Below are positions 1-28,244 of a DNA stretch of 64,000 nt, piece by piece. Location: positions 67,693 to 131,692 of the forward strand of contig CAZRVK010000003.1 of the NCBI GenBank assembly GCA_964603585.1, given 5' to 3'. The notes under the pieces are model-generated. The model had not been told where the DNA came from. It saw only the letters and a list, made by a program, of their open reading frames with translations, and did no database searches. Position numbers and translations under genes: made by a program. Position 1 is the first letter of the stretch, and each line of letters starts with the position of its first letter. Source of the stretch: an uncultured Planctomycetales bacterium (lineage in GTDB: Bacteria > Omnitrophota > Gorgyraeia > Gygaellales > Profunditerraquicolaceae).

Positions 1-15
1 ACCAAAAGTAAGGCT

Positions 16-3000
16 TTGCGAAAGCTGCGGTCTACGGCTATAAAGCTGGGTTTGCCTGTTAATCCGCGTGGCTTTGGTTCATTCTCGTTCTTGCCTCTTT
101 GTATCATGCATAACTTTGGGTTGTTTGTGGCCTGTATACTTGTGCTGGCAGGGGTATTTTCTGTTCTTCTGTCGCATGGCCCTCCTGATGCAGGGAGGAT
201 ACATCCTTTTGTGCATCCTGGCCGCGACAAACAAAGAGAGTTTATCCTTTCCCAGGCGTTTTTCCGTGGTGAAACCAAGGTAAATGAATTATTACGCCGG
301 GCCTGTGGTTTTATGGATCTTCAGGTTTTCCTTTCCATTTTTCTCCGCGATCGCAGGAAAATAAAGATTATTGATACGAATTTAGTAGTTTTTAAAGGTA
401 GAGAAGAAGAGTTCTTTCGCGTAACCGTTGATTTTGCCTATGGTCTCCAGGCTAAACGTTATTGTTTGTTGATCGGATTCTCGGATCATTTGATGCGCTG
501 CATGTATATTGAAATACTCGATAATTGTTTTGCCCATCTGCCTTTGCATCGGATCCCTAATGCCAAAGAGATGTTTTCCCAGCGTAATTCCATGATTAGT
601 TATTCCCGTATTGCCAGAGCCTGGGTTGCGCAAGAAGCCAAACAAACTAAGCCTGTTCAGGAAATAGGGGTATACAATTATATTAAAGATAAAGCGGCGC
701 ATGGCAATGTCAACGGGGCGATGATAGGCGCATTTGATGAATTGACATCAAGGATCGTTGCCGGACTGGTTTCGAAGAACCCAAGGGTTTTTATGAGTAA
801 TTATGCCAGCCAACTATCGGACACCTGGGAAGCATATGTCAGTATCGGTACTTATCCGGATCATTTAAAAGCATGGATAGGGGATGATATCCTTGCCCAT
901 CAGGTCGCAACAGGCGTCTTACAATTTACCGGCCGGATAGTTATTTTACGCAATCTGGCAGTTGACGCCTCGGTTTGCGCTATGGCGATGACCGGTTTTC
1001 ATAGGTACGGCTTAGTTGTATCTGCACATCAGCCTTGGAGTGAGGCCTCCCGGGAATTTAATATCTCGACCGCTGCCCATGAAAATAACCACCATCTTTT
1101 CCCCGGGAAATGGAGAAAATTAAGCGTCTTGGAACAGGGGGAATTGTTAAATCGTTTTTCTTTGCGCCATCCTGCATTTTTTGCCTGTCTCCTGGATAAA
1201 CGCGATAGTTGCAGCGAAGCGATCGTTTATGAAGACGCAATGGATCTTATCAATTTTGGGCTTCTTCCGGAGTCTTTGGCGTATCCCAGAAAAGATATTT
1301 TTGTCCGGCGTAATGAAAGTAAACTTGATCCGCCGAGAGTGAATTTATCGGAACGCTCAAGAGCGCGTCTGCACCGAAAAGAGCGCATTGAGCAAAAAAG
1401 AAGTCGCCAGGGATTTGAAGGTGTAAACGAAAACCAGGATCTCTCATTCGCTTTAGCGATGGTTGTTCCGCTTCCTCTTACAGGCATTATTTTGCTTTTT
1501 GCTTTAACTGTCTTTGCCCTTGCAGTGCCTTTCAAATCTAAGGCTGCCAATGTAATCCTTATCTTAGCCAGTCTTCCAGCAAAGCTTTTGACTAAAACCT
1601 GGATCCGCAATAATGCTCTTTTTGTTGCGGCATCGCTTTTTGGCTTTGGCGTGGTTATGGTTTTTGTCCTGTGGTTAGTATTGGATAACTTCCGAGTTTC
1701 CGCGCTTATCGGGATTGTTTATCTCATTGGCTGCTTAATGGTCGTTAAACAGCTTAAACAGGATAGCATTAACCAGTCATTGGAGCAGGATAGACAAGAG
1801 GCGCGGTTAAGGCAGGTCCAGGCTAAAGAAGAGCAAAAAAGAAGAAAAGAAAAAAGAAGGGAAAGGAATTCCGTCGCCAGGGAAAAAGCGAATAGGTTAA
1901 GGCAGAAAGTCACTGTTGTTCAAGAACCTGTTAAACAAACGGTTCCGGCGAGATTACCGCCAGAGTCGGTTAAAAGCGCCAGGCAGCTTTTTGAAGAACG
2001 ATTGTTTGCATTTGCTGGAGGAAATCCTGATCAGGAGGCAATGGCGAGGATCAAGCATTTTGTTTCTTTCATTGATTTGACAGGAGTTTCGCCTATTTGG
2101 GCTTCGATATGCTCGGTATTTCTTAGCCGAGACCTTCAGGGGCGGCATGTATTCAGCGAAAGAGCCATAGCCACTTTTTTAAGGCAGATCGCCTCATCTC
2201 AATTGTCGATTTCTGTGGGATGGATTAAGGATTTCCTGAAAAAAGTCGAAAGCACGGAAGGTTTAGAAAACAGCAATGATTCAGCCAGGTTAAAGCGTAA
2301 TTATTTAGCTGCGCTTGTAATTATAGATAGTTTAGAGCTTCATCGCCCGCATTTGCTGCTGGCTGATAGCAGAGGAATAGATTTTGAACGCTTGCGTTCT
2401 TTTAAACAAAGAGGCTCTATCGAAGGGGAGTGCAGCCTTATTCGTTTACGTAGCGTGCTTGCCCAGGTGATTATGGGGCATCATGCCAGGCAGATATGTT
2501 GTGAAATAGCATTAATTTCTCCTGATTTAGCACAGCAATTAGTTTCAGAATTCCCATACAATGATAAATTGGCAAAAAAAGATAAAAAAGCGCTTCATCG
2601 GCAGCTCGATGCCGGCCTGGGCATGGGGTTTGCGGCATTAAAATCCGGCATTACCCCGGAAGATTATCTTGCCAATGCGGATTATATCGGTTTACCGTTA
2701 ATCGCTGCTTTGTATCAGACAAGAGAAGAGATGGCTGATTGTGCCTCCAGGCGAATTGCCGGGCTTTATGATTTATCAGGGATTAAGAAAGAATATTCTG
2801 AATACAGCGATACTCTTACCATAATTGATCGACTGCTTTTGCGTGTTCCCGTGACCGCGCAGGTTGTAAAAGAACATTTAAACATTTTTGGGCAGTCTGC
2901 ACAGAGAAACAGGCAGTCGACAGCGTTTACTGATAGAAACTCAAGGGATAATAAACTTATACTCGAGGCAATTGCTGCAGATAAATCCGCCGAAGATTAC

Positions 3001-6000
3001 ATAAGAAGAGAAGAAGGAGTTAAAAGAGCCCGGGCGCAAGAGTTGTTAGATGGGATTTATTTGTTAGTCAGCCAAGGCCGATATAATGAGGCAAAACCTT
3101 TGGCTGTCGAGGCATATAATCAGGATAATATATTAAAACCAGTCGTGGCGTTGGTCAATAGCCCGATCGAACGGGGTGTATTTGAGGCAAGGCTTAGAGC
3201 CTTAGCGCAAGGGCTTAAAAGCCAAAGTAAAGACGATATCGAGGCTTCTTGCGGATATTTTATGAATCTTATCGGAGAATTCCCTCAAGCAGTAAGTTTG
3301 CTGTGTTCAAGGCTTGTATTCTCTATAGATACTACTTCTATCCAGGCAGATGAGGATATATCAGTCCTTTATCTTTTTTCCCGCCTGCCTTATGGGGCTA
3401 AGTCCCAAGATATGGTGGAGAGGGCTGTAGGGTTCATGAATTACGAAGGTTATCGCCAAGAGGATGTCCTTTCGGCAGGAAGGGAATTTTTCGAGTCTCC
3501 TTTTAGCGACGGCCTGATATATATGAATCAAAAACATGTAGCCCGGGCAACTTTTGAGGATAATAAATGGTCGATGTTGGCAAAATATTTAAACGAGATT
3601 GCCGCCTTCCCGTTATTAACCCGGTTAGGTGAAATTGTCTTAGGGGTAAGGGCAAGGTTTGCCAGAGAAGCATTGAAAAACGATGCTAAAAGAAGTCTGA
3701 TTGAATCTAATTTGAGGCTTGTAATAAGCTGTGCTAAGAAATATCGCTGGTCAGGATTGCCTCTTTTAGACCTGATCGGTAACGGTAATACCGGGCTTGT
3801 GAGTGCAGTAAACGATGAAAAATGGGATCCCAGCGAGGGGAAAAGATTCTCTACTTATATATACTGGTGGATCCGTCAAGCAATTTCAAGGTTTGTTGAT
3901 AATAACAAAGACCAAATCCGGCTTCCTCCGGATAAAGTCAGGGAGATAAATTTCCTGAAAAGCTCATGTGCCCGAAATGGCTTAGACCCTTTAAATAGGA
4001 AAGTTAGTACGGATGAGATCGCAGAAGCTATCGGCATGGATCCTAAAAAGGTAAAAGCTATTCGAAGAAATATGTTCTTGACGATCTCCCTGGACCAACC
4101 CCGGGGTCATAACAATGAGGATGGGCGAGAATCAAGTATTGCCGGTATTTTAGCAAGTAATGATGATGAGGTTGGCAGGATCCCTGATTTGCGTAGTGCT
4201 TTAATTAAAGTAGTTGAGACTACGGAGAGGCGTTTACGCCAGCGTTGGATGGCGGCTGCCGAGGAGAATATAGAAAGGGATCTTAAAATATTCAGGATAA
4301 GATTAGCCTCTTTATTAGGGCTGGGAGAACGCCAGACTTTAGAGGTTTTAGGCAAGGCTACAGGAGTTACCAGGGAAAGAGTTAGGCAAATCGAGGCTAA
4401 AGCTAAGCCGGTTTTTACCGAGGAGCTGCTTGCTTCCGGTATTACCCCGGAAGAGATCGAGCTGGTGCGCAGCGATTATCATGGAAAGTATTCTAAAGGT
4501 AAAAAAGGGGACGTTTCTAATTATTCAAGCCTAGTTTTAGCCGCGTCTACTACAGTCAGTTTAAACTTTTTACTTTTGATTATACTCGTGATATGCCTTA
4601 TGGCGCAATCCCCTCGTGGACCGCCTCAGGATAAAGTTGCGCAGGGATTTCCCTTAAGCGGCTTAACTCCAATTCCTAAGTTTCATCGTGAAGGCCTCGA
4701 TGCGAGCTTTTTTCCCATAGCAGAAATTTCCGAAGTTTTAAGATCACAAGACAAAAAAGGGTCCCTCGAAGTTACTATTACTGCGCATGAAGAAGGGAAT
4801 CTGCATATCTGTCTTGTTCTCATGCCGGTTAATGAGATCCTGGCAAAGATAGAAATGAGCAGGCAGGATTATATTGTAGTGACTAGGAAGAATCCAACGC
4901 TGCCGCGCGATATTACGGATATCATTATGAAGGATGATAGCGCTGTTAGAGAGAGTGAACCTTTTTGGGTGGGAGACGTAGTTGTTACCCGGAAGTATTA
5001 TACTGATCTAAATTGGATGGCCGCTGTTACGCATTTTTGGATTCATCCATTGCTTCGGCAAAAAGGGATTGGCGATTTGTGGTATAGAGGATTTGTCGAG
5101 CCATATATCCGGGAATGCGGTTTCGATATTGTTTTGGTCAGAGGAACATGCTTGGATGATTTATATATCAGTAATTTCTGGATCGACCAAGGTTTTTCTG
5201 ACACTGCTCCGTTAACCCAGTTGATCGGAGGCGAAACATTAATGGAATATGCTTCGGTAAAGAAAATTAATTCTTCTTCGCAAGCGCAGGATCTTGGAAT
5301 AATAAGTGGAACGGATGGACAGGGATCTTCGTTTTCCATTGGTACTCCATGGATTAGTACCCCGTTTCTATTCTTGTGCACTTTTGCTTTTCTTCTCTCG
5401 GTATTGTGGGCAACTGGGAATCCGCGCGGCCCGCCGTTTGCCAATCTATATATAGAAGAAGCGACATTAAATGATGTCGAAGAAATCGGAGGTATATTTG
5501 AGAGAGAGTTATTGCCTCTTTATGAGAACGATGTAGATGGCAGTCCATTATGGACAAGGAAACAATATGCATGCAGTATCCGTGATTCTATCTCTGGGAT
5601 AAGTGAAGGGCAGAAAACCAAAGGTATTGTATTGGTGGCTAGGGTGGACGGTCGCATTGCAGGATATGTGTCTGCATGTTTTTATCCTGGAAATAACTTC
5701 GGGGAAATAGATGAGATGGCGGTTGAGAAGGCTTATCAAAAACGTGGGATAGGTACAGCGTTGCTTAGCGGGGCGGTCTTTGCTCTTAGATCTATTCCAG
5801 GAATAGAAAGGGTTGTATTAACTGCGGATATATCTAAGGGCGGGAAAACAAGTAAAATTGCCCGTAAATTAGGGTTTCGCGCTAAAAATGACGCCATGAC
5901 ATTACGGCTTGATATGCCTGATGAGAAGGAGAAACGCAGTTCTCCGGTCGGCGGAGTAGTCGCAACAGAGAATATAGCCGAACCGAAGGTATTATTCCCG

Positions 6001-9000
6001 GTCTCAGAAATAGTAAAGCTTGATGCGAGCCTTCGCGAAGAAGCCTTTAATGTCGAGACGGTGCAAGGGGATCCGTTATTAAGCGCCAAAGATATCATTG
6101 GCTTCAATTTTGAGAGAATAATAGATAAATTCCGCACCTTTATCTTAAGGCATGACAAAGAAGAATTATCCAGTTTAACGCTTTGTCAAACAGGTGATGC
6201 AATATATTTTCGGATCCGTTTATCCGAGAGATTGAGGAACAAAGGTATCGGTAGGGTGTGGTTTTATCATATCCTTTTGCCTTATTTTTCAAGCCTTGCC
6301 GATTCAGGGATACAAGATATACGTACTTATTGGTACTGTTCGGAAGGCGGCTATGGCGATTTTATTATGGAGAAGTTGCATTTTCCTCATAAAAGAGCGA
6401 TACAGCTAGATACCTACGAAATAGTCTATTTTTGCGCATCAATGGTAAATCGAAATATACAGTCCCGACAAAGCACAGAAGATGGCCAGCGAACTCATTC
6501 TAATTACGCGTTCGCCGCGCCGCTTTTAGTTTTAAATGGACCTTGGGTGCCGAATATTCCGATAATTCCCTTGGGCATTATTATAGCCGGCTTGTTCTTA
6601 TTTTTAACGATCAAGCGTTTACCTGCAGGGGAGGATACATCCGTTTCAGTTCTTTCACGTTTTCTATCCCCGCAGAATGAACTTTTAGTGCTCATAAGTA
6701 ACGCGGACCGCTGGGCAAATTTTTATGACAAAATCGCCTTCCATACTCTTGTCAGGTTGTATTGGCGATTAAAAGGTTACAGGATCAAAATAATCAATGG
6801 GGCAACAAGGCGTAATCTGCGTGATGCCTTAAAAGATAACGGCGTAAAAAATATTGCTTTGACCGGACACGGGTCCTGGTCAAGCTGGGAGGCTTCTGAT
6901 GGGATTGTCAGTGAAGCGGACATCATCCGCTGGATGGGACCTGGCGTGGCGAAGAAGGAACTGTTTACAAAGTATTTCTGTGGCATCGGCGGAGATATTC
7001 CTCTAGGCTATCATGCGGTTAATGATCCAGAAGGCCAACTGTTTGGGACTATGCATGAGGCTAGTCAAAGTTGGTGGTTCGATAAACCAGGGCTATTTTC
7101 CTTAAGACAGCTCAAAGAGAATAAAGGCTTCTGGCTTTCATTCCTGCCGTCAAAATTATATGAGCGCTTGCAACGGACCGTTTTCGTTTTTATATTTCTT
7201 GAGACAGTTTCAGCTGTCATTGCCGCTGGCCTCATAAAGTATACTGATGCAACTATCCTTGCAAGTATATGGACAGGTTCATTGTGGGCGTTAATGGTAT
7301 TTGCGCCGGCTTTTATCGCTGCCTGGATATATCGCAACTGGGAATATTCAATAAGAGTTGGATTTGGGATATCCGCGATTGTTGCGGCTGGTCTTTTAAT
7401 GGCAAGCAGTTGGGTCTTTCCCGGGGTTGCGTTAATAAGCATCTTGGTTGAGAGGCATGGCATTGGTATGATTTTGGCTGTTCAATCATTGATTTTAATT
7501 GCCGGGATACTCTTATTGCCGTGTTTCTTCGGGAAAATCAAGGATAATGGTAAGCGGCAAGAAAGAGAAGAAAATAGGGTTAACAATGAGAAAAAAAGAT
7601 GGGCGCTATATGTCTTGCCAGCGATTGCTTTAGTAGCCGCGATAGCAGTTATTGTTGCACAACTTGTTTTGCCATCCTATTTCCTGCCTGTGGGCGCAGG
7701 CGCTGTTTTATCAGCCGAATTCCTTTACATTGCAATAGCGGCGCCTATCCTTGAAGAGATCGCCTTCCGGAATTTACTGTATAAACAAACGTTACGCAAG
7801 TTTTTCGGGGTGATTGTCTCTACAGCCATTTCCTCGTTTTTATTCTCGCTTACACATTTTGTATGTGAACGCGGGCTCGGCCTTTTGGATTTCGCCGTCA
7901 TGGTTACCTATGGAGTTGTTTTTGCCGTTTGTTACGAGAAAACAAAAAGACTGTGGGTACCCATGCTTTTGCATATGGCGAATAATTGCATACTTTATTT
8001 TGTCATTACATTCGGTTTGATAAACGGAGGGAATGTTTATGCGAGTTTATTGGGTTTACGGATAGTTCTTATCGGCCTTGTCAGCGCATGGCTTTTTGCG
8101 GGGAGAAAGAATTTTGTTTCTATCTTTGATCAACAGAGTAAACTCGACCGTGCTTTGGTTAAGGGGTATGAGTGGCTTGATGATAAAGTCTCGGCTTTTC
8201 TTAAATTGTTTACTTGTGCGTCTTTTTCGGTGCTCTCGGTATTGCGGGGAAGTCAAAATCCGCGCGGCCCTCCGCAGGATAAATCCGCTTCTCATCTATC
8301 TGCTTCTGCACGCCTTGATCTGGATAATGCGGTTAAAAAAGATGATTCTTATTCAATCCTTTCTGGGGTTTCATTGCCTACGCTTCTTGGCATTTTAAGT
8401 GTTTTTATGGTTACTATTTTGGTCCTTGGAATCATCGGATTGCGGGGAGCTTCTTGTAAACAAATTGTTAGATATAATGCAGGCAAACGGCCTTTGTCTT
8501 ATTCTGGGGATGATGCCCGCCCCTGCCGTGCATTAGTTCTTGATGACCGCAGGTCGAGGTTAGAAGAAGTTGAGCAAAACCTCGCTCGTTACGGATATCG
8601 CGGGGAGCAGTTTTATACCTTGCCTCGGGCAATGGCGGCTATGCGTAAGGCGCAACGCGAAGGCGTGCCTTACAAATTAGTAGTTACTGACCTTGATTTA
8701 GGGTGGAGCATTTTAAAGCCCCAGCTTGTGGTAGAAGGGTTACGGTTTGCAATATGGGTAAGGCAGGTTTATCCGCAAACCGAAGTTATCTTGAATTCTA
8801 CGCTTTTTAACCGGGGGAGTTATGCAGTAATGCTCCCTCTTGCCTTGGGTTTTCCTCGGAAAATTGAGATTTCCGGGATCAGTATTTTAGGTAAAGATAA
8901 TATATTCGCAGCATTTCGTGGCTTGGGAATGGATGAGTTCCATCAAAAATGGCTTATCCAGAAATGCCGGGAGCTTGCGGATTTGGGATATACTTTAGCA

Positions 9001-12000
9001 TACGAAAAATTTGAAGATGAAAGTAAGGGGTTTGTACATATTTGCCAGGTAAAGCAAAATGGAATTCTTCGCGGGGCATTGAGGATCGTTGAAACAGGCG
9101 ATACTTTAGGGATCCGCGATATTTATCCTAATTTGCCTGTCGGCCATGGATATGGCCGGGCGGTTTTATTACTTATGTTGATACGGCAAAACCGCTGGCA
9201 GGGGCGAGAATTTAATTCTTTGACCAGCAGTATCGTTGCCTGCCGGATGTTCCAGAGGATGCGCCGTTTTCGCATCGATATTAAGGAAATTGGGGATAAT
9301 TTCTGGCAGGTTAACGGGAGGGTTCCATATTTTAACCAGGGTGCTTTTGATGAAATAAAGAGTTCTGGTATCTATGAAAGCCACCAGGATGCAAAAAACC
9401 TGGCTTTTGCGCCTTTATTAGGCATGGAGTTATTGGCGCAGACAGGGTTAGGCTTCTTCGCCGGGAGTATGCTTTTGTTGTTTGGATGCCTACTTTTTGC
9501 TTATAATGTGCCGCAGGAGTTTTCTTTCAGCGGCTTAACTCCGGACCAGATATATCCGGCGTATGTCTCTCGTGTGGTTTCTGCTTTAGAGAGTATGGCA
9601 GAAAATCCTGCCGGAGGCAGGGGGCTGGATTTTCTTTTAAAATGGCCCGGTAAGTTAAGGGTTGGGGAGAGGATAGCTTTTCCTGTACATATCATTATCG
9701 GGCATCTGGATGAAAAGGAATTTTACCCCCGGCACAAAAAAGAGATCGCCCGTTATTTTCTTGCACGGGAAGATATTATGCGTTCTGCTTTATTGGTCAT
9801 GGCAAAAACCATAAAGTGTGCGGGCCAGCGAAACCGGCAAAGGGTTTTTGATATTTTCGCGGAAATGTTATATTCGGCCAACTTCCGGCAGCTGCGTAAC
9901 ATCCGCCGGATTTTGAGCCGGAAGATCTTCGAATCCCGCCGGGATATTGAATATAAGCGTGCGATCTTAGAGATGATGGCAAAAATGGATTATGGGTTTG
10001 CCAGCGCTGGCGGCGAGTCTTTTTCTTCTTTTGCACCGCTTGCTATGGCAACACCGGGTATCGGCATATTGTTTTTACTCTTATTGGCGGTAGTTATGTT
10101 TGCAGAGACGGGTATTTCTTTCGCGGATCAGGCTAAAGCATTTGGATTTTTTCCTGGAGAGTCCGAAGAAAATCATCTTTCTGGCAATGCCGCCAATATA
10201 TACGAGAGCTGTCTCACTTTTACTCATTCCAACAAAATTGCCCCGCAGCTTATGTTAAAGAATCCGGATATCCAGGATCATTGTCCGGAGCCTTCAAATT
10301 TCGTTATTCCTTCGATCATTTGGAATGAGACTTTTGAGTTAGCGGCATTATTTATAGTGATTGGTATTATCGGCGCAATATGGTTGTGGAAGAAACACAG
10401 GGACCATTCTATTTATTTGTCCTCTAACCTGGATGCTCCGTATATGCCGCAGGTTTCGACTAAATTTACTTCTTCAGAAAGAGAGGATATCGCCCAATCC
10501 GCTAAAAGAGTGTACGATCTATTTTCCGAGCGGCTTAATTTCAAAGATTCCCTAATGCTGAAAAGAAAACTACAGCAGGTTAAAGTAAGGCCTTTGCCTC
10601 AAAGACTGCATTTGCGGATGGCTTATTTATTATGGGCCGCCTGCGGGTTATTCTTGTTGTGCGGAATTATTTCTGCAGATAAACAAATAATATGGTATTC
10701 GGCGGGGATTGTATTCTTTGGCAATATCGTTGCTATGATTACATACCGTTTTGGATTTCCTCCGGGAGAAAAGCAGAGATCATGGTCAAATCGATATATA
10801 TATCTTGATCGAAATGACGCAAATTCATGGGATCTGGATTATGAGCTGATCAAATATATCTTCAGCCAATTCTATTATAGCCGGGACCCCTTGGTCTCTA
10901 CGGCTATAGCACATTCATTAATTCACCTGGATAGGCCCGGGATCGCCTCTTTAATGGATCTTTCAGGGTTTAAAGAGGATATTGCCGAAGGATTATTCTC
11001 GCCCGAGGCGGTAGTTAGTAATCTGGAGGTATTCTTGGCAGGCAAATGCAGCCAAGAAGAAAGCGTGCGCAGGCAGTGCCAGCGTTATTGCGATGCAATG
11101 CGTAAAGAAAATTATATTAGCGGACATGCGGCAGAGGCAGCCGCTACAACACTTGTCCTTTGGGATCTGTATGGGGTTGAGGTTGCGAAAAGTTTTATCC
11201 TTCAATATGCGGTTAGTAATTCTGTCAGCGAGGCATTATTCCTGGCTTTGTCCTTAGGAAAGCCATGGCAGCATAAAATGATGGCTTTTTATCGTCCGTC
11301 ATTGAGGTTAATATTAGAGTTATCGGTTTCAAGTGCTTTATCTGTAATTATGCTTATCCAGAATGAATATGCCCCAGCGTTATTGTTTGCGGCATATTCC
11401 TTGTATCGTCTTGTAGGTATATTCTTCCACAAACGGATTGATTTAATAGAGTTTTGCCAGGGGATTAATGAAGATAAAGCCAAGGCTATTGAGTTTCTTG
11501 CGCCAGGAAATGTATTGAGGATGATAAAGATAAATTATGATCAGGAGCATATGCCGTGGTGCAAAAAGGTGTTGGAAGAGTTCCAGACATTTATCGCAGA
11601 AAAAGGTGACTCCTTGTCTCCACCGGATATTCAATCAAAGGCGGCAGTGGATGAAGTGCTTAGGCGTATAGAGGCATCTTACGCCGCTAAGAGCGGCAGG
11701 AATTCCAGCTCTAATCATACATTCGCGGTTTTTCCGGTGGGGGCTGGTTTATTTATTCTTTTGCTGATAGCGGCAGCTATTTTGGCGATAACGCTAATAG
11801 CCAAAAGGGCAATAACCGGACTGCATTTATCGCGAGCCCCGCCCCAGGCTGGCAATTTGCATCATCAAATCTCTAAAAGGATACGTAATGTTGTAATTGT
11901 TACTTTGGTTTGTGCTCTCGGTATATCTGTAGTGTATTCATTAGGTGGGTTTAGCGCGTATTTTGCAGTAAAGAATTCACAGCCCGCGCACTCGCTGTTC

Positions 12001-15000
12001 TATTTACCTGCTGCGCTACTTGATATTGGTTTTGGCGTGATCACCTGGTTTAGCTGTGACGCCGCCGGACAATATCTTAATGAAGGCCGTATGATCCGCA
12101 AGAAACAAAGTTTGATCGTCGGTTTATGCGGGGTCTTTCAGGGAACACTTGCGCATGTTAATTTGAATATCCCCGACCTCTTGCCTGTATTGCCGAATCA
12201 TTTTGCGCAAATGATCTTTAGGACTTTTGTCGTGCTTGCCGGAGGGGTGATAGTTTCATTTATCTTTGCCCGCGCTACATCTTTCGGCAGGCAGATCACC
12301 TCGGCACCGCAATTCTCCCGGGAAAAAGAGTGGGGTAAAACCGGGGACCTGTTTTTGGCTAAATTTATTTTAGCCCCCTTAAAATCATTCATTGTGATCA
12401 ATCTATTCCCGCCTTCGGTCAGGGTCATCAGTATGCAGGCATGGGATTACTTAATGACGATCTTCTTTGCCTATCTTATGAACCGTAAAGAGCCGTTATT
12501 CCTGCCATTCTTTAGAAAGTTGTTTTCCTTTAGAAGCATTTCTGCTTTATCTATAGGTGCTGTAAGTGTATCTTTGCAGCCGGGATGCGGAGTGATGCAG
12601 GATTTAGGCGTTTTTCCCCTGTCCCACCCCGCGGTGGAATGCAATCAAAGGGATCCTTCCTATATAAATGTAAACGGCATAAACACCCGTTATTGCTCGT
12701 TCGGGCAGGGCCAGACGGTTATTTTTATCCATGGTTTCAATTCATCGCTTGAGGAATGGTTTTGTGTGGTTAATGGGATGGAGGATTCTTATCGGATTAT
12801 TCTTATAGACCTCCCGGGATTTGGAGATACACAGTTACCTCAAGGGTTTGGCTGTAATACCTCCGATTATACTGTTTTCCTTGATTCATTTATGCGGGCG
12901 CTTGGTTTAGAGAAAGCTTCGATTGTCGGTTTTTCTATGGGGGGAAAAATCGCCTGGAGTTTTGCTGTTAGTTATCCGGAGCGCGTAGAAAAACTTGTTA
13001 TTTTGGATGCCGCCGGATACAGCGATAAGATAGATGAGGCGCGGCTGCTTTTATGGCTTAGCGGTCGTATGGATTCTGCCGGTGCATGTATTTTGACATC
13101 AGATGTGTTGGATCCCAGCGCCAGTGGCCAGATATCCGAGATTTCTGTTCCCAGTTTGATCATCTGGGGTAGTGGTGATGTAGTGATACCTTTGAGTGAA
13201 GGCTTTCGCTTTGACCGGGATATCGCTTGTTCCGAACTCAAGATCCTTTTTGGCGCCGGGCATGGTGTTCTTTGGGAAAGGCCAGTTCAGATCAGGCAGG
13301 AGCTGTTAAGGTTCCTTCCTGTATATCCTGAAGCGATATGCAGCCCGGGGATGATGTATGCCTGCGGTGCAGGGGTCTTTGGCTCTTCGGTTATAATTAT
13401 TTTTATCTTTGTGCTGATGACAGCGGTTTGGGCCGTTGACCCGAAGGGCTCCGGGCAGGTTACGGGCCTTGATTTAGGGGTTAAAGAAAAAATGGTCTTA
13501 AGAGTGTTCGGGTTTTGGTTATCCCAGCCCAATGATACCAGTTGTGTTACTATACCGGCTTTACTAAGATTTGCTGGTTACCAGGACGAGATCCTTAATG
13601 ATGAAGCCGGCAACGCATTTTTAAGATTGTCACGGCAATGCCAATTGATCAAGGTTTGCGGCAAAGATATTTATTATCCGGCAGGCAAGAGTAAAGACGC
13701 GGAAGAAAAACGAGGATTGATCGTCAAGACAATCGCTTCCCTTGCCGGAGAATATACGGATACTCCCCGGGAACTGAATAGATTAGCGAAGTTAAAAGAT
13801 GCGTTATATGAAATTACTGTTGTGCGCGTCCTGGTGCGAGACGGCAGTATTTCAGGGTTTAGGGTGGCATATAAGGATAGTTTTGGTTTTGTGCCGTTTA
13901 CTCTGCGGCCTCGGTATGGAGAGTATGTTTTTAATCAATGGCAGGTCAAGGAATGGGAAGTCTTGATAACCGGAAAATCTTTTTCTGCCCGCCTGCATGA
14001 ATTAGGAGAATATGCCGGCAGGAAAAATCCGGTATTTAATATAAAAAATGAGCCGGTTAAAGAGGCTGATGTTCCTAAGAGGGATGATTTTAAGGGGGGG
14101 GTGGCTTTTGCCAGAAGTCCCGGTAATGCAAGGCATACATGGGATGATGAAGCATCTCAAACTGCATCGTCCGGCAACGTGTTATTGGCGGCATTAAGGG
14201 ATAATGATCCTAAAAAGATTCTCAATATATTAAGGCGGTTACTGCCGCTTGATTATGGCGCTGGATGGATCGAACAAATCTTTAACGCAGAACATGGTCT
14301 TCAAAGGCAAGTTGAGCTGATAAATATTTTTAAGGATCTCCTGCGGAATATCAAGCTCCAGGAACAGGAGATCCTTGTATTCGCCAGATTATTCTACCGG
14401 GTTCGTCCCTTGCAGGCAATAGAGGAGCTTCAAGAAGTAATATCCTCATCGGCTGACCCTTGCGCGCGCCTTATTGCCGCAGAGGCGATATTTAATTTGG
14501 ACCTCCAGGGCCGGGAAGAGATTTTCTTGCGCCTGTTTAATCAGCCGGAGATGTGTTTACAGGCCAGGGCTTTAGCCGCAAAGATGTATGCGCAAACCAG
14601 CGGCCGGGCGCGGGAATATCTGGGGCATTTTATTGCGCATGACAGCCGTGATCAGATGCGCCGGGCAGCCGTGATCGGTTTATATGATGCCGGAGGCCGT
14701 GCGCGCAGGATCTTGGAAAAAAGCCTGAAGATTTCATATGATCCCGCAAGCGGTGTTATCCAAGGAAAAGGGTTTACAGACGGTTTTGTCCAGCCATCTA
14801 ACGAGCCGGGGACAAACCGGCCAGACTGTTCTTATTGTTTTGTGCCTGAAGGGATGACGGTCGCCATGGGATTTGTCATAACATCATTGTTTTTGTTTGC
14901 GTTATGCATATTTATGATGGCAGATCGTTCTGGAGGCCTGCCGTTTACTTTTTCACAAGAGGAAGCGGAGGATTTAGCGGATTTAGAGGAGAAGATCAAT

Positions 15001-18000
15001 CGAGCTCCGGAAGGCGTAAGGCATAAGCTTAAACTGCTGGTAAGAGAGCTTTTTAAAGACAGTTACGGCATATCTTTTGTCAGGTATTTTGTTGATATTG
15101 TAATCGATAATAATCTTGTGGATTCGATCCCTAAAATCGAAGAGGCCCTGCCTTGCATAAAGGAGTTCAGGCAAAGGTTTGAAGCCGCTCAAATAGAGGA
15201 ACACTTCATTCGTTCAATACTAAAAATGATATTGGCCTCTAAAGATATTGTGGGGCGCCTGCAGATCGCTTTAGATGCGGCAGGGTCATTGATGGCAGCA
15301 GGTTTGAGCAATGTTCAGTCAGCCAATATTATTAATTTGCGTATAGGAGAAAATGATGCAGAAAAGCTAAAGGCCAAGTTTGAGGCAATAGCCGTTGAGA
15401 TGAAAATGCTTAGGCAAGCCTTGCAGGCCAAAGGGTTAGGGGATTATTTTATGGATTTTGCCGGGATCATCGTTATGCAGAATGATGTGCTTGCTAAGGC
15501 ACAAGCCATAAGGGATTCTGCAGATGAGCTAAAGGATCTGATCGATTCCTTGAAAAAGATAAAAATGGAAGATAACGGCGCATTCGTGATCTTGAGGGAG
15601 GTGATCTTGCAGCCAGATATAGGGGCTGCAGCGCAAAAAATAATCCTGGACGCAGTGAGTATAGGAGATCTTTACAGGCTTAAAGAGGAAGGAGCTTTTT
15701 CTCGCAGCGTTGTAAGGGTTGTTTTGCCTGACAATAGCAGTGCCTCTGCTTTTTTCGCAAGTATCGATCGCGGTTATTATTTTCTTTTGACTAATACGCA
15801 TGTGGTTGGCCGAGACCGGGAAGTTATGCTTTTAACCAATGAGAAGACTCCGCGAAAGATAGGAACCGCGCACGTTGTCCTGCGCAATAAGGTCATTCCC
15901 AGGTTTGATTTCTTTGAGAATTCCGATTTTAACGCAACATTCGAAGAGAATGAATTTACCGATATCGCGGTCCTTGCTATTTCTGTCAAGGATGTAGAGG
16001 ATAATTTAGTCGGTGCTTTAAAGGTGATTCCGTTCTCTACAAAGATTGCCGAGCATTCTTTTTGCGCTGCTTTAAGCGGTGCTAAGGATTATTTGGGGAT
16101 TGGGATGCTGGCTTGCGCAGACAAGACCATCATGCTTAACGGCGTAAAGAATACCCCGGGTGATTCTGGCTCTCCGGTAATCGATCAGGATGGAAACGCT
16201 GTGGCAGTTATCGCCAAACGCAACGGGGGAGCGTATCTTATTACCGAGAGCGTAAAAAAAGGGCTTATCGATGCCGTTTTCGGCAGGGAATCAGAATTTA
16301 TCCCGGTAGCTGACGACCCGGATGAGCTTTTAGCCGTCCGGGAATTTGTTTTGAATATCCCTGCCATTGAAAATGAGGACATTTTAACCGGTGGGCAAAG
16401 GACGCCTGTTTCATTCATGGCTGCGCCGGTAGAGATCCTTACTAATCTGGCTTTAAGCTGGTGGATAGGATGGGGATTTTTGAATGCGGAGGTCTTACGC
16501 GCGGTAGGGATCCAGGTATCTCATGTGATAGATGTCACGCGTATTTTTATCCCGGATGTTTCAAGCCATGAAGATAGAGGCCTGAAGATCTTGCCCGGGG
16601 ATGATCTGGCCAGAGTGTTTGCCGATAACCAAAATCCGATTGTGATCGAAGTCGGGTTCGGCCGGGGGTTATTACTTGTCGAAATGGCTAAATCTAACCC
16701 CGGGATCAATTACGTTGGGGTCGAGTCCCAATTGTGTTTTGTCGAATTATTGAACCTGGAAGCTAAGCGTGCACAGGCGGCAATCGGCAATTTAAGATTA
16801 ATTGCCGCAAATGATATTACCACATTCCTGGAACAAAGGCGCCGCAATATCGTTTCCGAGATTTATTATATTGCGCTTAATCCGCGCCATGATGCGAATG
16901 CGATAAATACCCCGGCAGGTTTTAAGGCGATGGCAAGCTTATTAAAACCAGGGGGCAGGATATATATATCCACTGATACGCCGTTGTGTGAAGAGGCCTT
17001 ACGGTTATTCCATGAAGGATGTTTTAAAGATGTGACAATGGATCATAAGTTTCCCCATGCTTCAGAAGATTACGATGGTTGCGAGAACTTTAAATACGTT
17101 TTTGAGCGTAAAAAATCCGAAGAGGATAAGGTTTCTTTTATCCTCGGAGCCTTTGGCGCAGGCCAGGCCAGTGAGTTGCCGATAATGTCGGTAGTAAGTT
17201 TATTTATTCTTGCCGCAGCAATTTTATTTATCATTCAGTATGCCGTAGATTATAAAGGCACAAATCGTTTCGGCGAAGAGGCTGCAATGAATGAAGAAGT
17301 GGCTGGCTTTATCCGCAGTATAGAGGATGATTTCTTCCGCATTCTCGAAGAAGAAGGGCTGAATGATCATCCGAGATACCGCTGTATTATTGCCTCTAAA
17401 CTGCTGGCCTTCATTCTTACCGGGCATTTTGGCCTTCCGATCGGAGGCAATAATCCGGACCGCATTGAGGTGGTTCCCGGGTTTTACCGGATAAGGGATC
17501 AAGGCGGCCGTTATCATCACTGGATCGCCATTTATTTTAAGAATAAACCGGCACTTTATATTGATGCTGCGTATGGACAGTTTGATGAAGCCTGCCAATC
17601 TAAGATTATCGTGGGCCTATATCAGGATGCGGTATCCCGGTATGAGCTTACGGAGTCAAAGGATAAATTTGCGCAGATCCTTAAAGAAGAGGGGCTGGAC
17701 CCGGAATATGCTCCTTTAGCCGTTACAATACGCCCCGAGTATTGCGAGTTCTTGCGTGATACCCGCATCCGAAAAGGGGAATTGACCAATCTTGGCCGGG
17801 AAATAGAGACAAAGATCGAAAAAGCCTGCGCCGCATTTAAGGCTAAAACCAAAGAAATTAAAGAGCGGCAGAGGCAAATGGTTTCGCATGAATTAGCGGG
17901 TTGTTATCTGCATCGGTATAAAGGTCGGGTTATTCTGATCGGCGGATCCACCGGCAGCCTTGAGCCGATCAAAACTATCCTCAATAAACTGAAAGTGCCT

Positions 18001-21000
18001 TTTCCTCCGGTTATTGTCGTTAAACATTGTGTTGAACCTGATGTTGCTTTGGGCATGATCAAAGATCTTCATCTGTCTGCGCAGATAATTAAAGGCGGTG
18101 AATTGATCCTGCCGTCAAAGGTATATTTTGCCGTTTCCGGCAGGCAGCTAAATTTCGCAGAAGACGATTATGGGTACCGCCTGCGGTTGTTAAGAGCTTC
18201 AAGCAGTAAGCTCGGGTTTGTTCCGTCTATTGACAAATGCTTTAAGTCAGCGGCGAGAATTATTGGTTCGGATACAGTTGGAATAATCTTAAGCGGGTGG
18301 GGTGATGATGGGGCAAAAGGGATCGTAGATATCTATGAGGCAGGAGGGTTGACGATTGCGCAGTATCCGGAAACCTGTTTAAGGCCGGATATGCCGCTAT
18401 CGGCTATTCAGACCGGAGAGGTTAGCCATATTTTAGTCCCGGAGGCGATCGGAGATCTTATTGCTCAAAATAAAGAGCGGCCCGGGGAATTTGCATATTG
18501 TCTTATGTTTCTGCCTATCACGGCCTTTATTATTGCTTTGTTTTATTTGTTGCTGGATCCGTTTAAGTTTGCACAAGGAGTGGGGATTTCTTCGCAAGGT
18601 TTAATTAATGATAGTAATGAAAACATGGTTTGGCGGATAAAATTTTTAATGAAAAAGCGAGGTTGGAACGCATCCGGGCTTGTACGTGAAATTCATCGTA
18701 AGGCAATAGCCTTAGGCCAACTTCCGGAAACCACTCCGGAGGCGGTATGGCGCTGGCTTACTGGAGAGCACCATCCGGATATAAAGATAATCCCTGTATT
18801 AGCTGCGGCATTAAAGGTTGATCCTTGTTGGTTGGTTTCGGGCCTGCCTTTAGCGGCTGCGATGCGCCAGGAGGTTTTGCTTCCTAATGAGAAGGAAAAA
18901 GCCGGTTCAAGCTTGGGCAGGCGGGTGTTAATTTTACGCTGGGTGCGCGGGATGACATCGGTAGAACTTGCCAGGCGGGTTGGGATGAGCCTGGGTAACC
19001 TCAATAATATCGAACAGCATCTTAAAACCTATCCGCGTCCTGTATATATAGGTAAGATTGCCCAGGCCCTGGGGGTAAGTCCGGCATTGATCCTGACAGG
19101 CTTTGAACGGAACCACGTGATCGCAAACCTTAAATATCCAAAGGACAGATTTTTATTTTTGCGATTATGTGCCTGTATGACCCAGGATGAGCTTTGGGAG
19201 AAATTAGTTGATCAATATGGAGCGGATATCGAAGGCCGGCCAACCGTGGCGCAATGGGAACGGGGCGTTGTTCCAGACGCGCCGCATATAAGAAAAGCGC
19301 TTAGCAGGCTGTATGGGGTATCTTGGTCCAGGTTGAGTGCGGTTAACCAAAACGGTAAAAGGCTTAGTGAATTCATGGAACTGGAGGCGGTTGCAAAGAC
19401 GCGTAATTATTTCGCCAAGATCATTGATTCTAATCTGCCGGATTCCTCGATTGTAGTACGTTTCCCAGCGATTGTAAGCGATATTATCATGGCCGATCAA
19501 ATCGGTTATGATATTGGCCCGGTAGTCAATATACTCTTTGATCTGGTGAATAAAGATGTAAATGGCAAAAGGGCAGTCCGTATGAAGAAAATACTCCATG
19601 CCCTGGATTTTTACCAAAAACTTTTTCTTCTGCGGGCAGGGACATGGAGGGCCAGGGATGAACGGGCAAAATATTTTGCCAGCGTTGTACTCAAAGATCT
19701 TTTGAAAAAGATAAACGATTCTGGTTTAGGCAATAACCAGACGGCAAAGATAGCCCGGCAGGTTTTTTGGTGCGACATCGTAGATTTTTTAAGCGGCAAT
19801 CGCGGTAGAGAAAGTGCGGTTAAGTTCATTGAAGCGCAAAAAGATGCAGCCGTAGGTTTAAGTAGGGGACAATTGAATGGTTGTCCGGGTATCTGCCGCA
19901 GTCTTATGAATAGATATGGATTTATCAATATCGCTTTACGCCTGGGTTGGCCGATAGAGGGGATAAATTCTGGTCCCGGAGAGTTTGAAAATAACGCACA
20001 AGGATTTAAGAAACGGGTATTTGATTTTTACATTCGTAATCAACGTTTTCCTAAAGTAGAAAAAGGGGGATTAAAGGAGTCTGATGTTTGGGTGATCGAG
20101 CTTTCTAAATCGCTTCTTGGCGGCAGTCTTGCGATGTTCAAGCTAAGGTTTTTCGAAGAATTCTCCGATCAGATCAAAACATTGATACGGCGCTCTACTC
20201 CTACGGTCAAGAAACGCATGTATGCAGAATTGTTGAGCGTTTTGCCTTTTGACCGCGATGCACTGGAATTTGTATCGCAAGATGCCGTGGAACGCGCAAA
20301 AGATGAGGCGCGCATGCGTAAGATCGTGCGCGATTTTGATACTAACGTCAGGGTTTATCATTGGTATGATTACAACCTTGAAAATGATGAAAGGATATCC
20401 GAGGCGAAAGCCTCGGCTGATATGATCGTAAGTTACTCTGATTTCGGCTTGCTTTCTTCGGCGCAGCTTGTGGGTTTGTGGAGTGAAATGAAAAGAGGGA
20501 ATTCGATTGCCCGCAATTTCATTATGGATTCAAATACCGGGCTTATCGTTTCTTCAGCCCGGGATATCGCAAGGCGGCCGTTAGCGCGGAATATCAGCGT
20601 CGCGGAACTGCGCAATGAAGGGTGGTTTGGCCTGCGTATTGCCGCAGAAAGGTTTGATCCGGCACGCGGGAATAAATTTTCTACCTATGCGATGTGGTGG
20701 GTGATGCAGGCGCAGACACGGATGTGCCTGTACGGCGGCAGGACGATACGTGCGGATCCTGCCAAGGTCGCGCGTTTTTATCGTCTGCGGCAGAAATTAG
20801 CTGAACTTGATGGTGCGGGTTTCGAACAAAGGGCCAAGAAGAGTTATGCCATTATTTACGATAAGACTAAAAGGGAAGCCGATAAATTACGGGAACTTTT
20901 GGCAGGCGCGCTGAACACGAAGTCTCTAAGCGATAAAGTAGGTGCAGATGACGATGGTGCTATATTCTCGGAGTTTGTCGAGGATGTAAAATCCGAGGAT

Positions 21001-27539: not shown

Positions 27540-28244
27540 ATGCAAGAACAGCGGAAATTATCGAGGTTGATCACTAAACGCAAAGTCAAGGTTCTGCTTA
27601 ATGGCGCGCATGCCTATGTCAGCGGCTATCTGATCGATCTTAACCTGAAGGGCGGTCAGCTTGCTTTACCGATCAAATTGCCGGTAGATACTTTTTTGAA
27701 AATGTCTTTGGTGCTTTGCGATGATTTTGTCCTGGATATCGAAGTTTGGATCGTCTGGAACAGTTTGAGGCACGGGCTTAATGTTTACGGCCTGTATTTC
27801 AGCCGGATAAAAGATGAGGATAAGGAGAAAATATATAAATTGCTGTTAAGGGATTATTCCAGCCAATTAAACCAGAGATGGTGGGGGGCTAATAGAAAAG
27901 GAGGGCATGAAATGAAAATCGAAGCATATAATGACAAAAGGACTTTTGCCCGATTCCCGGTCCAGTTTTCCGCAAGGTTGTTGTCAGCGCAGTTGGATAA
28001 AGAAGTCCTTGCCCAGGTGCGGGATATCAGTGCCAAAGGGGTAGGTTTAGCCGCAAAGGTAAGATTGCCTGCTCGTACTGCCCTGGAATTATGGCTGGAT
28101 ATTCCGGATGATGCGGAACCGCTTTACTCCCGCGGGGAGGTTGCTTGGTGTGGGGAAGGTGCGGCCGATGAGTACCGGATGGGGGTATCTTTAGAAAAAG
28201 CGGATTTTATGGGATTGGCAAGGGTCTTAAGAGTAAAACAGTAG
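27540..28244 (+). CDS. Tandem PilZ-domain protein (putative c-di-GMP receptor)
   Basis: RBS AAAGGAGG at 7 nt upstream. The second half has canonical RTFAR (RxxxR) + DISAKG (DxSxxG). The first half has RKLSR + DLNLKGG (S->N variant). Stop codon is TAG. Confidence 0.7.
   Translation: MQEQRKLSRLITKRKVKVLLNGAHAYVSGYLIDLNLKGGQLALPIKLPVDTFLKMSLVLCDDFVLDIEVWIVWNSLRHGLNVYGLYFSRIKDEDKEKIYKLLLRDYSSQLNQRWWGANRKGGHEMKIEAYNDKRTFARFPVQFSARLLSAQLDKEVLAQVRDISAKGVGLAAKVRLPARTALELWLDIPDDAEPLYSRGEVAWCGEGAADEYRMGVSLEKADFMGLARVLRVKQ

What the first reader, a model, noticed from the sequence alone, without database searches (positions are those of the whole stretch)
4540..9560. Repeated 'TM helix + NPRGPP(QDK) + GFPLSGLTP' module (3 full copies, 1 partial) as a candidate processing or sorting signal
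Three near-identical peptide modules occur within 4 kb: ...LVICLMAQSPRGPPQDKVAQGFPLSGLTP, ...FLLSVLWATGNPRGPPFA and ...FSVLSVLRGSQNPRGPPQDKSAS. A fourth, hydrophobic helix + QEFSFSGLTP, lies at about 9.5 kb. Each copy sits at a domain boundary immediately before a GNAT or REC-like domain. Copies 2 and 3 are also about 95% identical at the nucleotide level, whereas copy 1 uses different codons, which indicates protein-level constraint. Helix-then-proline-rich motifs at domain junctions are what one expects of protease cleavage or sorting sites in a polyprotein.
Basis: seen in the sequence. Interest (0 to 1): 0.7.

Follow-up and report, generated by a model that had tools for sequence, protein, structure and literature searches.

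The report
Repeated membrane-helix linker in giant gene
A 9,000-residue bacterial gene joins unrelated enzyme and regulator domains with short membrane helices, several ending in the same proline-rich tag (PRGPP); the tag is real, under selection and found only in this gene, but nothing shows that the protein is cut there.

Summary
The motif is real. PRGPP occurs three times (nt 4612, 5422, 8260) in one >9,144-aa ORF, always within 6 residues after a hydrophobic helix and nowhere else in six frames. The 4th copy (SGLTP, nt 9529) is statistically marginal. Nucleotide identity between copies 2 and 3 is 83% over 42 nt, not 95%.

The three copies are the best-preserved members of a wider linker cassette: S-[FY]-[AS]-x cap, hydrophobic helix, then [R/H]-[G/A]-P-P-[Q/D]. 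This cassette joins domains in the N-terminal half: sigma-70, two GNAT folds, a newly recognised caspase/CHAT-like domain, CPBP and a weak REC-like domain.

Copies 2 and 3 share a recent DNA ancestor. Copy 1 keeps PRGPP with all five codons changed, which indicates selection on the peptide.

The motif is private to this gene. It is absent from 5.8 billion proteins, GTDB genomes, JGI metagenomes and all domain homologues, and matches no curated sorting signal.

The locus (PilZ, T2SS/T4P genes) matches published Omnitrophota giant-gene loci.

My best reading is internal signal-anchor/stop-transfer linkers with a helix-terminating diproline cap. Cleavage stays plausible because three protease-type domains lie in cis and relatives carry Tat- or lipobox-like signals at equivalent junctions, but it is untested.

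The parts
1..27435 (+). Giant ORF (>9,144 aa; the start lies left of the window) that contains all the modules.
   Evidence: Its last 3,508 aa and the downstream genes also occur on an independent Logan assembly contig.
61..189 (+). Degenerate 'copy 0': NPRG, GFGSFSF, a hydrophobic helix, then HGPPD. It follows the tail of a sigma-70 region 4.2-like sequence (TKSKALRKLR).
3583..4404 (+). Complete sigma-70 unit (regions 1.2, 2, 3, 4) immediately upstream of copy 1.
   Evidence: Pfam.
4519..4671 (+). Copy 1: NYSS cap, hydrophobic helix (nt 4531-4608), SPRGPPQDK (nt 4609-4635), GFPLSGLTP (nt 4645-4671).
   Evidence: Flank charges are +4 on the N side and +2 on the C side.
4675..5292 (+). Domain A: GNAT fold with no Pfam hit. 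It begins at PKF, directly after copy 1.
5329..5436 (+). Copy 2: SFSI cap, hydrophobic helix (nt 5356-5415), GNPRGPP (nt 5416-5436). The first strand of the next GNAT domain begins 3-4 residues later.
5620..5880 (+). GNAT acetyltransferase domain (Pfam Acetyltransf_1/7).
6676..7173 (+). Domain D: caspase/CHAT-like (clan CD) fold with a conserved GHG...C dyad, fused upstream of the CPBP domain.
7174..8106 (+). Multi-pass CPBP / Rce1-like intramembrane protease domain (Pfam core at nt 7714-7992).
8194..8283 (+). Copy 3: short hydrophobic segment (nt 8194-8247) followed by GSQNPRGPPQDK (nt 8248-8283).
   Evidence: The closest homologue, P0003, has a lipoprotein-signal-like segment at this position.
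9448..9543 (+). Marginal 'copy 4': hydrophobic helix followed by PQEFSFSGLTP.
   Evidence: The DNA match to copy 1 is within the chance range.
11728..11850 (+). Degenerate member: hydrophobic helix followed by LSRAPPQAG.
15745..16209 (+). Trypsin_2-like serine protease domain with an intact His/Asp/Ser (GDSGSP) triad.
27540..28244 (+). PilZ gene immediately downstream of the giant ORF (locus signature).
   Evidence: Compared with West-Roberts 2023.

Best explanation
The modules are copies of a reusable inter-domain membrane linker in an Omnitrophota-type giant mosaic protein. Each linker has a polar S-[FY]-[AS]-x cap, a 18-30-residue hydrophobic helix and, in five to seven cases, a C-terminal cap [R/H]-[G/A]-P-P-[Q/D]. 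PRGPP(QDK) is the best-preserved form of that cap.

Inferred mechanism:
- The helices act as internal signal-anchor and stop-transfer segments. They thread successive domains alternately out of and back into the cytoplasm: sigma-70 inside, GNAT-fold domain A outside, Pfam GNAT inside, caspase-like domain D outside.
- The Arg-Gly-Pro-Pro cap ends the helix at the membrane interface. It separates the helix rigidly from the first strand of the next domain.
- The cap always follows the helix in the order of synthesis and contains a diproline, so it may also slow the ribosome just after each helix is made.

What is shown:
- The motif and its positions.
- Copies 2 and 3 descend from a recent intragenic duplication or gene conversion of a cassette of about 26 codons.
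- The peptide cap is under purifying selection.

What is inferred: membrane insertion, the alternating topology and any pausing.
For: - Position: all PRGPP copies lie within 6 residues after a hydrophobic segment and within 3-21 residues of the next domain.
- Diprolines: 6 of the 16 PP dipeptides in 9,144 aa follow a hydrophobic segment at the set threshold (p=0.0014). Copy 3, just below the threshold, is a seventh. The background rate is 8.5%.
- N-edge cap: S-[FY]-[AS]-x marks at least 8 isolated linkers (the pattern was defined post hoc).
- Ancestry: copies 2 and 3 use the same codon at 9/10 conserved residues (2.9 expected). Their DNA match of 41 bits exceeds every one of 40 shuffles. Copy 1 keeps PRGPP with 5/5 codons changed.
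- Export of flanking domains: some standalone homologues of domain A have N-terminal signal peptides. Homologues of domain D are directly preceded by Tat-like signals. P0003 has a lipoprotein-like signal at the position of copy 3.
- Topology: two helices lie between sigma-70 and the Pfam GNAT domain. That keeps both cytoplasmic and puts domain A outside, which agrees with the flank charges of copies 1 and 2.
- Literature: polyproline motifs are enriched at domain boundaries and downstream of TM helices in E. coli (PMC5811046). Omnitrophota giant proteins are known to have many TM helices.
Against: - No topology predictor or experiment was available. Flank charges are weak or contradictory for several linkers, for example the helix before domain D.
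- A generic helix cap would not need five invariant residues.
- PP after a helix is not enriched in related giant proteins (4/141), so this is not a general property of the class.
- An exported GNAT-fold domain would lack acetyl-CoA.
- Only a minority of the linkers carry the full motif.
Confidence: 0.45

Rival explanations
1. Polyprotein processing sites. The giant protein is cut at or beside the helix + PRGPP junctions. The enzyme would be signal peptidase (each copy has L-x-[A/G] three to five residues before [N/S]PRGPP, which fits the -3/-1 rule) or one of the proteases encoded in cis (caspase/CHAT-like domain D, CPBP, trypsin-like). Cutting would release, for example, a membrane-tethered sigma factor and exported enzymes.
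For: - Three protease-type domains lie in the ORF: CPBP, a trypsin-like domain with an intact triad and clan CD-like domain D.
- Domain D and CPBP lie between copies 2 and 3.
- Two sigma-70 units are each followed by a helix + GPP cap. Sigma factors need release to act.
- Relatives carry internal Tat-like and lipobox-like signals at junctions.
- The motif is under peptide-level selection.
- P-R-G resembles sites of Arg-specific endopeptidases (my own knowledge).
- Cleavage of Omnitrophota giant proteins is an open hypothesis in the literature.
Against: - No cleavage data exist.
- The motif is at only 3-5 of about 16 linkers and in no homologue.
- It would face opposite sides of the membrane in copies 1 and 2.
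- The residue at the trypsin S1 position (six before the catalytic Ser) is Lys, not Asp.
- It matches no curated sorting or processing signal model.
Confidence: 0.3
2. Neutral remnant of intragenic duplication. A linker cassette was copied when domains were added, and the shared residues reflect ancestry only, with no specific function.
For: - Copies 2 and 3 clearly share recent DNA ancestry.
- The motif is private to this gene.
- It is not seen in related giant proteins.
Against: - Copy 1 versus copies 2/3: five of five synonymous positions have changed, yet PRGPP (and QDK in copies 1 and 3) is intact while the flanks have diverged beyond recognition.
- Degenerate members keep [G/A]-P-P-[Q/D].
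Confidence: 0.15
3. A DNA- or RNA-level element (mobile insertion, recombination site, DGR repeat, or regulatory hairpin) that happens to be read in frame.
For: Copies 2 and 3 are more alike at the DNA level than the peptide requires. The core CCGCGCGG is palindromic.
Against: - Folding is no more stable than for shuffled sequence (z from -0.6 to +0.2).
- There are no flanking inverted repeats and no Rfam family.
- Copy 1 conserves the peptide but not the DNA.
- Mismatches are not adenine-specific, and no reverse transcriptase was found in the window.
Confidence: 0.03

Closest known systems
Omnitrophota giant genes ('Archaeovorin', Dockerin-type and multi-enzyme classes; West-Roberts et al. 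2023 bioRxiv 10.1101/2023.11.21.568195; 2026 preprint 10.64898/2026.06.07.730766)
   Same: - An uninterrupted ORF of more than 9,000 aa with many interspersed TM helices.
- A mosaic of GNAT, methyltransferase, peptidase and regulator domains.
- A PilZ gene immediately downstream, with GspE/F/D and PilM genes nearby.
   Different: - Neither paper, in the passages I searched, describes a junction motif, and the first states that cleavage points are unknown.
- This protein has no SecA, C39 or dockerin domains.
- Taxonomic placement was not tested here.
Flaviviridae-type polyproteins with internal signal and stop-transfer sequences
   Same: Unrelated domains are joined by single hydrophobic helices that alternate sides of the membrane. 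A chymotrypsin-fold protease is encoded in the same polyprotein (analogy from my own knowledge).
   Different: This is a bacterial chromosomal gene. No cleavage has been demonstrated, and there is no sequence relationship.
C-terminal sorting signals (PEP-CTERM/exosortase, LPXTG/sortase, GlyGly-CTERM/rhombosortase)
   Same: A short signature motif is combined with one hydrophobic helix.
   Different: - The order is reversed: helix first, then motif.
- The position is internal rather than C-terminal.
- There is no basic tail, no HMM match and no sorting enzyme in the window.
Polyproline (XPPX) translational pause motifs relieved by EF-P (Qi et al. 2018, PMC5811046)
   Same: A diproline placed just after a TM helix and 3-21 residues before a domain start, which are the positions where such motifs are enriched in E. 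coli.
   Different: Stalling here is untested. The invariant P-R-G before PP is not explained by pausing alone.
Membrane-tethered sigma and anti-sigma systems released by proteolysis (pro-sigma-K/SpoIVFB, RsiW/PrsW-RasP; CHAT-domain anti-sigma DdvA, PDB 8rot)
   Different: All parts are fused in one giant ORF. No anti-sigma domain was recognised. The relation is an analogy only.

Membership tests
Omnitrophota-type giant membrane mosaic gene | An uninterrupted ORF of at least 7,000 aa. | tested here: met
   >9,144 aa, open from base 1 to 27435.
Omnitrophota-type giant membrane mosaic gene | Numerous TM helices interspersed among unrelated Pfam domains. | tested here: met
Omnitrophota-type giant membrane mosaic gene | A PilZ gene directly downstream and type II/IV secretion genes in the locus. 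| tested here: met
   PilZ at 27540-28244; two GspE-like genes, GspF, secretin and PilM, as described.
Omnitrophota-type giant membrane mosaic gene | The genome belongs to phylum Omnitrophota. | not testable with these tools
   No close relative in GTDB representatives or JGI metagenomes. There is no rRNA gene in the window.
C-terminal sorting signal (PEP-CTERM, LPXTG, GlyGly-CTERM and similar) | A signature motif, then a TM helix, then a basic cluster at the extreme C-terminus. | tested here: not met
   The motif follows the helix, and the modules are internal.
C-terminal sorting signal (PEP-CTERM, LPXTG, GlyGly-CTERM and similar) | A match to a curated signal model. | tested here: not met
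   NCBIfam scan of five modules at E<=10 gave only noise.
Sec/Tat/lipoprotein signal peptide | A positive n-region, an h-region, and a c-region with small residues at -3/-1 (or a lipobox, or an RR motif). | tested here: inconclusive
   - L-x-[A/G] lies 3-5 residues before [N/S]PRGPP in all three copies (by eye).
- The n-region is positive only in copies 1 and 3.
- There is no lipobox or RR motif in the modules.
- No SignalP-type predictor was available.
Sec/Tat/lipoprotein signal peptide | Located at the N-terminus of the translated product. | tested here: not met
   The modules are internal, at residues about 1,510-3,180 of the ORF.
Polyprotein cleavage site | A protease encoded in cis. | tested here: met
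   CPBP, trypsin-like domain with triad, caspase/CHAT fold.
Polyprotein cleavage site | A site motif recurring at junctions and conserved in homologues. | tested here: not met
   Present at 3-5 of about 16 linkers. Absent from all 150 best domain homologues and from all the databases searched.
Polyprotein cleavage site | Observed cleavage products. | not testable with these tools
   No proteomic data for this organism.
EF-P-dependent polyproline pause motif | Consecutive prolines in an XPPX context. | tested here: met
   GPPQ or GPPF in all three copies.
EF-P-dependent polyproline pause motif | Demonstrated ribosome stalling. | not testable with these tools
   Would need toeprinting or ribosome profiling.

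The most novel reading that the evidence does not exclude
The helix + PRGPP cassettes, and the wider S-F-A / helix / GPP linkers, are the long-sought processing and export punctuation of an Omnitrophota giant polyprotein. Each linker is an internal signal sequence. The protein is cut there by signal peptidase or by its own caspase-like/CPBP protease pair. This releases membrane-tethered sigma factors into the cytoplasm and GNAT-fold and caspase-like enzymes to the cell surface. The internal Tat- and lipobox-type signals seen in related giant proteins would be other dialects of the same system.
Probability: 0.2. Interest if true: 0.8.

Novelty: new variant of a known kind. Interest (0 to 1): 0.5.

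Why it matters
The published work on Omnitrophota giant genes explicitly asks whether giant proteins of more than 10,000 residues act as one chain or are cut into pieces. It also states that no cleavage points are known.

This window offers concrete, short, selectively maintained junction elements at mapped domain boundaries, next to three candidate proteases. Together they make a defined test set for topology reporters, N-terminomics and mutagenesis.

It also shows that the domains between the linkers have standalone or differently arranged homologues with genuine export signals. This suggests that internal hydrophobic segments in giant proteins should not be dismissed as prediction artefacts.

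If the motif proves to be only a helix cap, the result is modest: a gene-specific linker reused by intragenic duplication.

Tried and rejected
1. Close relatives of the giant protein. None were found by the word-indexed search with nt 4390-9600 or by scans of GTDB genomes and JGI metagenomes. Conservation in orthologues could therefore not be tested.
2. The module profile against 5.8 billion proteins gave 14 word-sharing candidates, none scoring.
3. The degenerate DNA pattern for PRGPPQDK gave 19 hits in GTDB genomes and 30 in JGI metagenomes. Nearly all are out of frame, and none has an upstream helix, so they are chance matches. A recurrent hit on Chloroflexi-like contigs is read through stop codons and is unrelated; it has no Rfam family.
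4. RNA structure at the modules is no better than in shuffles.
5. A mobile element or DGR is rejected. There are no inverted repeats, no reverse transcriptase and no adenine-specific mismatches.
6. Lipoboxes in the PRGPP modules: none is convincing.
7. Curated sorting-signal models gave no match.
8. PP after a helix as a class-wide rule is not seen in related long proteins.
9. A type IV prepilin-like reading of the S-F-A cap is rejected because Gly at -1 and Glu at +5 are absent (by eye).
10. An Arg-specific S1 pocket in the trypsin-like domain is not supported; the residue there is Lys.
11. The profile of domain D against PDB sequences found nothing. The fold search was needed.


Full report
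**What is there**

The finding lies inside one uninterrupted reading frame, window nt 1-27435 on the + strand. The listed ORF is 9,139 aa from the first TTG, but the frame is open from base 1, so the gene starts left of the window. The pentapeptide PRGPP occurs at nt 4612, 5422 and 8260. SGLTP occurs at nt 4657 and 9529. Neither occurs anywhere else in the six frames of the 64 kb. From the residue composition, about 0.003 PRGPP are expected in 9,144 residues. Each copy lies within six residues after a hydrophobic segment.

A self-comparison of the protein finds only two kinds of internal repeat: the two sigma-70 units and these short islands. The copies are therefore not parts of larger duplicated domains.

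**Corrections to the observation**

- Copies 2 and 3 are 35/42 nt identical (83%). With two in-frame indels they align over about 78 nt, or 26 codons. Only the 18-nt NPRGPP core reaches 94%.
- This is still the strongest direct DNA repeat in the ORF: 41 bits, against at most 33.4 bits in 40 codon-shuffled controls.
- At the ten residues that copies 2 and 3 share, nine use the same codon (2.9 expected). This pair has a recent common DNA ancestor.
- Copy 1 shares PRGPPQDK with copy 3 but differs at the third position of all five PRGPP codons, and its flanks are unrelated. That pattern is what peptide-level purifying selection produces.
- The link between copy 4 and copy 1 (7/10 residues; 31.5 bits of DNA) is within the chance range for an ORF this long. 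Only its position after a helix speaks for it.

**A wider linker family**

The ORF has only 16 Pro-Pro dipeptides. Six of them directly follow a hydrophobic segment at my threshold, and copy 3, just below it, makes seven. The background rate is 8.5% (p=0.0014). The seven are:

- HGPPD (nt 175-189)
- the three PRGPP copies
- GFPPGEK
- SRAPPQ (nt ~11830)
- LFPPS

At the N-terminal edge of at least eight isolated hydrophobic linkers there is a polar S-[FY]-[AS]-x cap: SFSF, SFAL, NYSS, SFSI, NYAF, SYSI, SFSS, TFAV (this pattern was defined post hoc). The three copies are therefore the best-preserved members of a linker cassette used repeatedly in the N-terminal half of the protein.

**The domains that the linkers join**

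| Feature | Position | Evidence |
|---|---|---|
| Sigma-70 unit | before copy 1 | Pfam |
| GNAT (Pfam) | after copy 2 | |
| CPBP/Rce1-like domain | before copy 3 | Pfam |
| REC-like region | after copy 3 and one further helix | E=0.017, below cutoff |

- Further downstream Pfam finds alpha/beta hydrolase, trypsin-like, TrmB-type methyltransferase, CheB, HTH, a second sigma-70, alpha-amylase-like and methyltransferase domains.
- In copy 2 the motif abuts the first strand of the GNAT domain (PRGPP-FAN-LYIEEATLNDV). In copy 1, domain A begins at PKF immediately after GFPLSGLTPI, exactly where its homologues begin.
- The trypsin-like domain has an intact His/Asp/Ser triad.
- The window also opens in the tail of a third sigma-70 region 4.2-like sequence, which is followed by the degenerate copy 0.

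**Is the motif found elsewhere?**

No.

- A search with nt 4390-9600 found nothing at E<=1e-5.
- A profile of the four modules found only 14 word-sharing candidates among 5.8 billion clustered proteins, and none scored.
- A back-translated PRGPPQDK pattern gave 19 hits in 185,579 GTDB species genomes and 30 in JGI metagenomes. Nearly all are out of frame or unrelated, and none has an upstream helix.
- An exhaustive phmmer search of 1.84 billion representatives with residues 1505-2704 found 1,737 proteins at E<=1e-3. None of the best 150 contains PRGPP.
- The hits match single domains. Many lie in other long proteins (1,900-6,600 aa), and the domain order is not conserved.
- PP after a helix is not enriched in those relatives (4/141).
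- No curated sorting-signal model matches.

The motif is therefore not a compositional artefact, but it is private to this gene.

**Clues from relatives**

- Several standalone homologues of domain A begin with ordinary N-terminal signal peptides.
- In three relatives the caspase-like domain D is directly preceded by an internal twin-arginine-type signal (TRRDFLK plus a hydrophobic region). One of these gives a weak Pfam TAT_signal hit.
- The closest homologue of the CPBP region (P0003, 44-48% identity) aligns through the hydrophobic part of copy 3. It then carries a lipoprotein-signal-like KKIILPVLFAFSLLFLGGC where this protein has ...SVLRGSQNPRGPP.
- Another relative (P0018) has at least two internal copies of an 'SSPIS / basic / hydrophobic / [IM]SGC' module; I read a third, more divergent one by eye.

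Hydrophobic junction elements that look like export signals are thus a recurring feature of this class, each protein with its own version.

**Context**

The giant ORF is followed at once by a PilZ gene. After that come an ABC sugar transporter, GH2-like genes, two GspE-type ATPases, a GGDEF-AAA-HEAT protein, GspF, a secretin and PilM. West-Roberts et al. describe exactly this neighbourhood for Omnitrophota giant genes and state that cleavage points are unknown. The 2026 preprint lists GNAT and methyltransferase 'module 1' architectures and TM-only topologies. I could not test the taxonomy directly. The C-terminal 3,508 aa and the downstream genes occur on independent Logan assemblies, so the ORF is not an assembly artefact of a single data set.

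**Mechanism**

I favour internal signal-anchor and stop-transfer linkers with a helix-terminating Arg-Gly-Pro-Pro cap (confidence 0.45).

- Two helices (copies 1 and 2) lie between sigma-70 and the Pfam GNAT domain. This keeps both cytoplasmic and places domain A outside.
- That arrangement agrees with the signal peptides of domain A homologues and with the flank charges (+4/+2 for copy 1, 0/+1 for copy 2).
- On this reading the cap faces the periplasm in copy 1 and the cytoplasm in copy 2. That argues against a protease confined to one compartment.
- It favours a role tied to the order of synthesis: helix termination, rigid spacing from the next domain, and possibly a diproline pause. Such motifs are enriched at these positions in E. 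coli (PMC5811046).

These steps are inferred. The charge evidence is weak and contradictory for the helix before domain D.

Rival explanations:

- **Cleavage sites (0.30).** This explains the five invariant residues better. It is made plausible by three cis-encoded protease-type domains and by the need to free sigma factors. Against it, the motif is sparse and unconserved.
- **Neutral duplication remnant (0.15).** This is contradicted by the codon pattern of copy 1.
- **DNA- or RNA-level element (0.03).** This is disfavoured.

**Verdict**

This is a real, selectively maintained, gene-specific junction motif in a giant mosaic membrane protein of a known kind. Its reading as a processing signal remains an open, testable hypothesis.

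Noticed in passing
[not shown]
   Followed up: yes
window 1-189: The window opens in the tail of a third sigma-70 region 4.2-like sequence (TKSKALRKLR). It is followed by NPRG, GFGSFSF, a helix and HGPPD. Two of the three sigma units are therefore followed by a helix + GPP linker; the third, at nt ~20500-21300, is not.
   Followed up: partly
window nt 79, 1444, 4519, 5329, 6502, 8347, 10018, 11719 (first base of each cap): A polar S/N/T-[FY]-[AS]-x cap sits at the N-terminal edge of at least eight isolated hydrophobic linkers (post hoc pattern, p about 1e-5). The relative P0003 has the same 'SSTFAF' before a helix.
   Followed up: partly
proteins P0018 (res. 146, 163, 816), P0030 (208), P0033 (533), P0034 (729), P0047 (643), P0003 (927): Related long proteins carry internal twin-arginine-type (TRRDFLK) and lipobox-type signal sequences hundreds of residues from their N-termini, in three cases directly before the caspase-like domain. 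The 2026 Omnitrophota preprint suppressed internal signal-peptide calls as chunking artefacts.
   Followed up: partly
window 5932-5952 (RSSPVGG) and relatives P0002, P0009, P0010, P0018, P0019, P0020, P0029, P0030: A short 'SSP[VIA]' motif recurs in inter-domain linkers of the related giant proteins, often just before the hydrophobic or signal-like segment. The window protein has one clear instance before the second GNAT-like domain.
   Followed up: no
window 15745-16209: The Trypsin_2-like domain scores below the Pfam cutoff (E=4.9e-4) but has an intact His/Asp/Ser triad (TNTHVV, TDIAVL, GDSGSP). The residue six positions before the catalytic Ser is Lys.
   Followed up: partly
window 27540-57393: The locus downstream of the giant ORF holds PilZ, an ABC sugar transporter, GH2-like genes, two GspE-type ATPases, a 1,338-aa GGDEF-AAA-HEAT protein, GspF, a secretin and PilM. 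This is the neighbourhood published for Omnitrophota giant genes.
   Followed up: partly
window ORF, whole: The pentapeptide LDAAG also occurs three times in the giant ORF. Its positions and context were not examined.
   Followed up: no
L007, L012, L017, L022, L023, L027, L033, L034, L041, L042, L045, L047, L049, L051: The PRGPPQDK DNA pattern repeatedly hit one conserved sequence on contigs of about 50% GC; the three GTDB hits among them are Anaerolineales, Anaerolineae and Chloroflexia MAGs. In that frame it reads through stop codons. There is no Rfam family there, it is presumably coding in another frame, and it is unrelated to the finding.
   Followed up: partly
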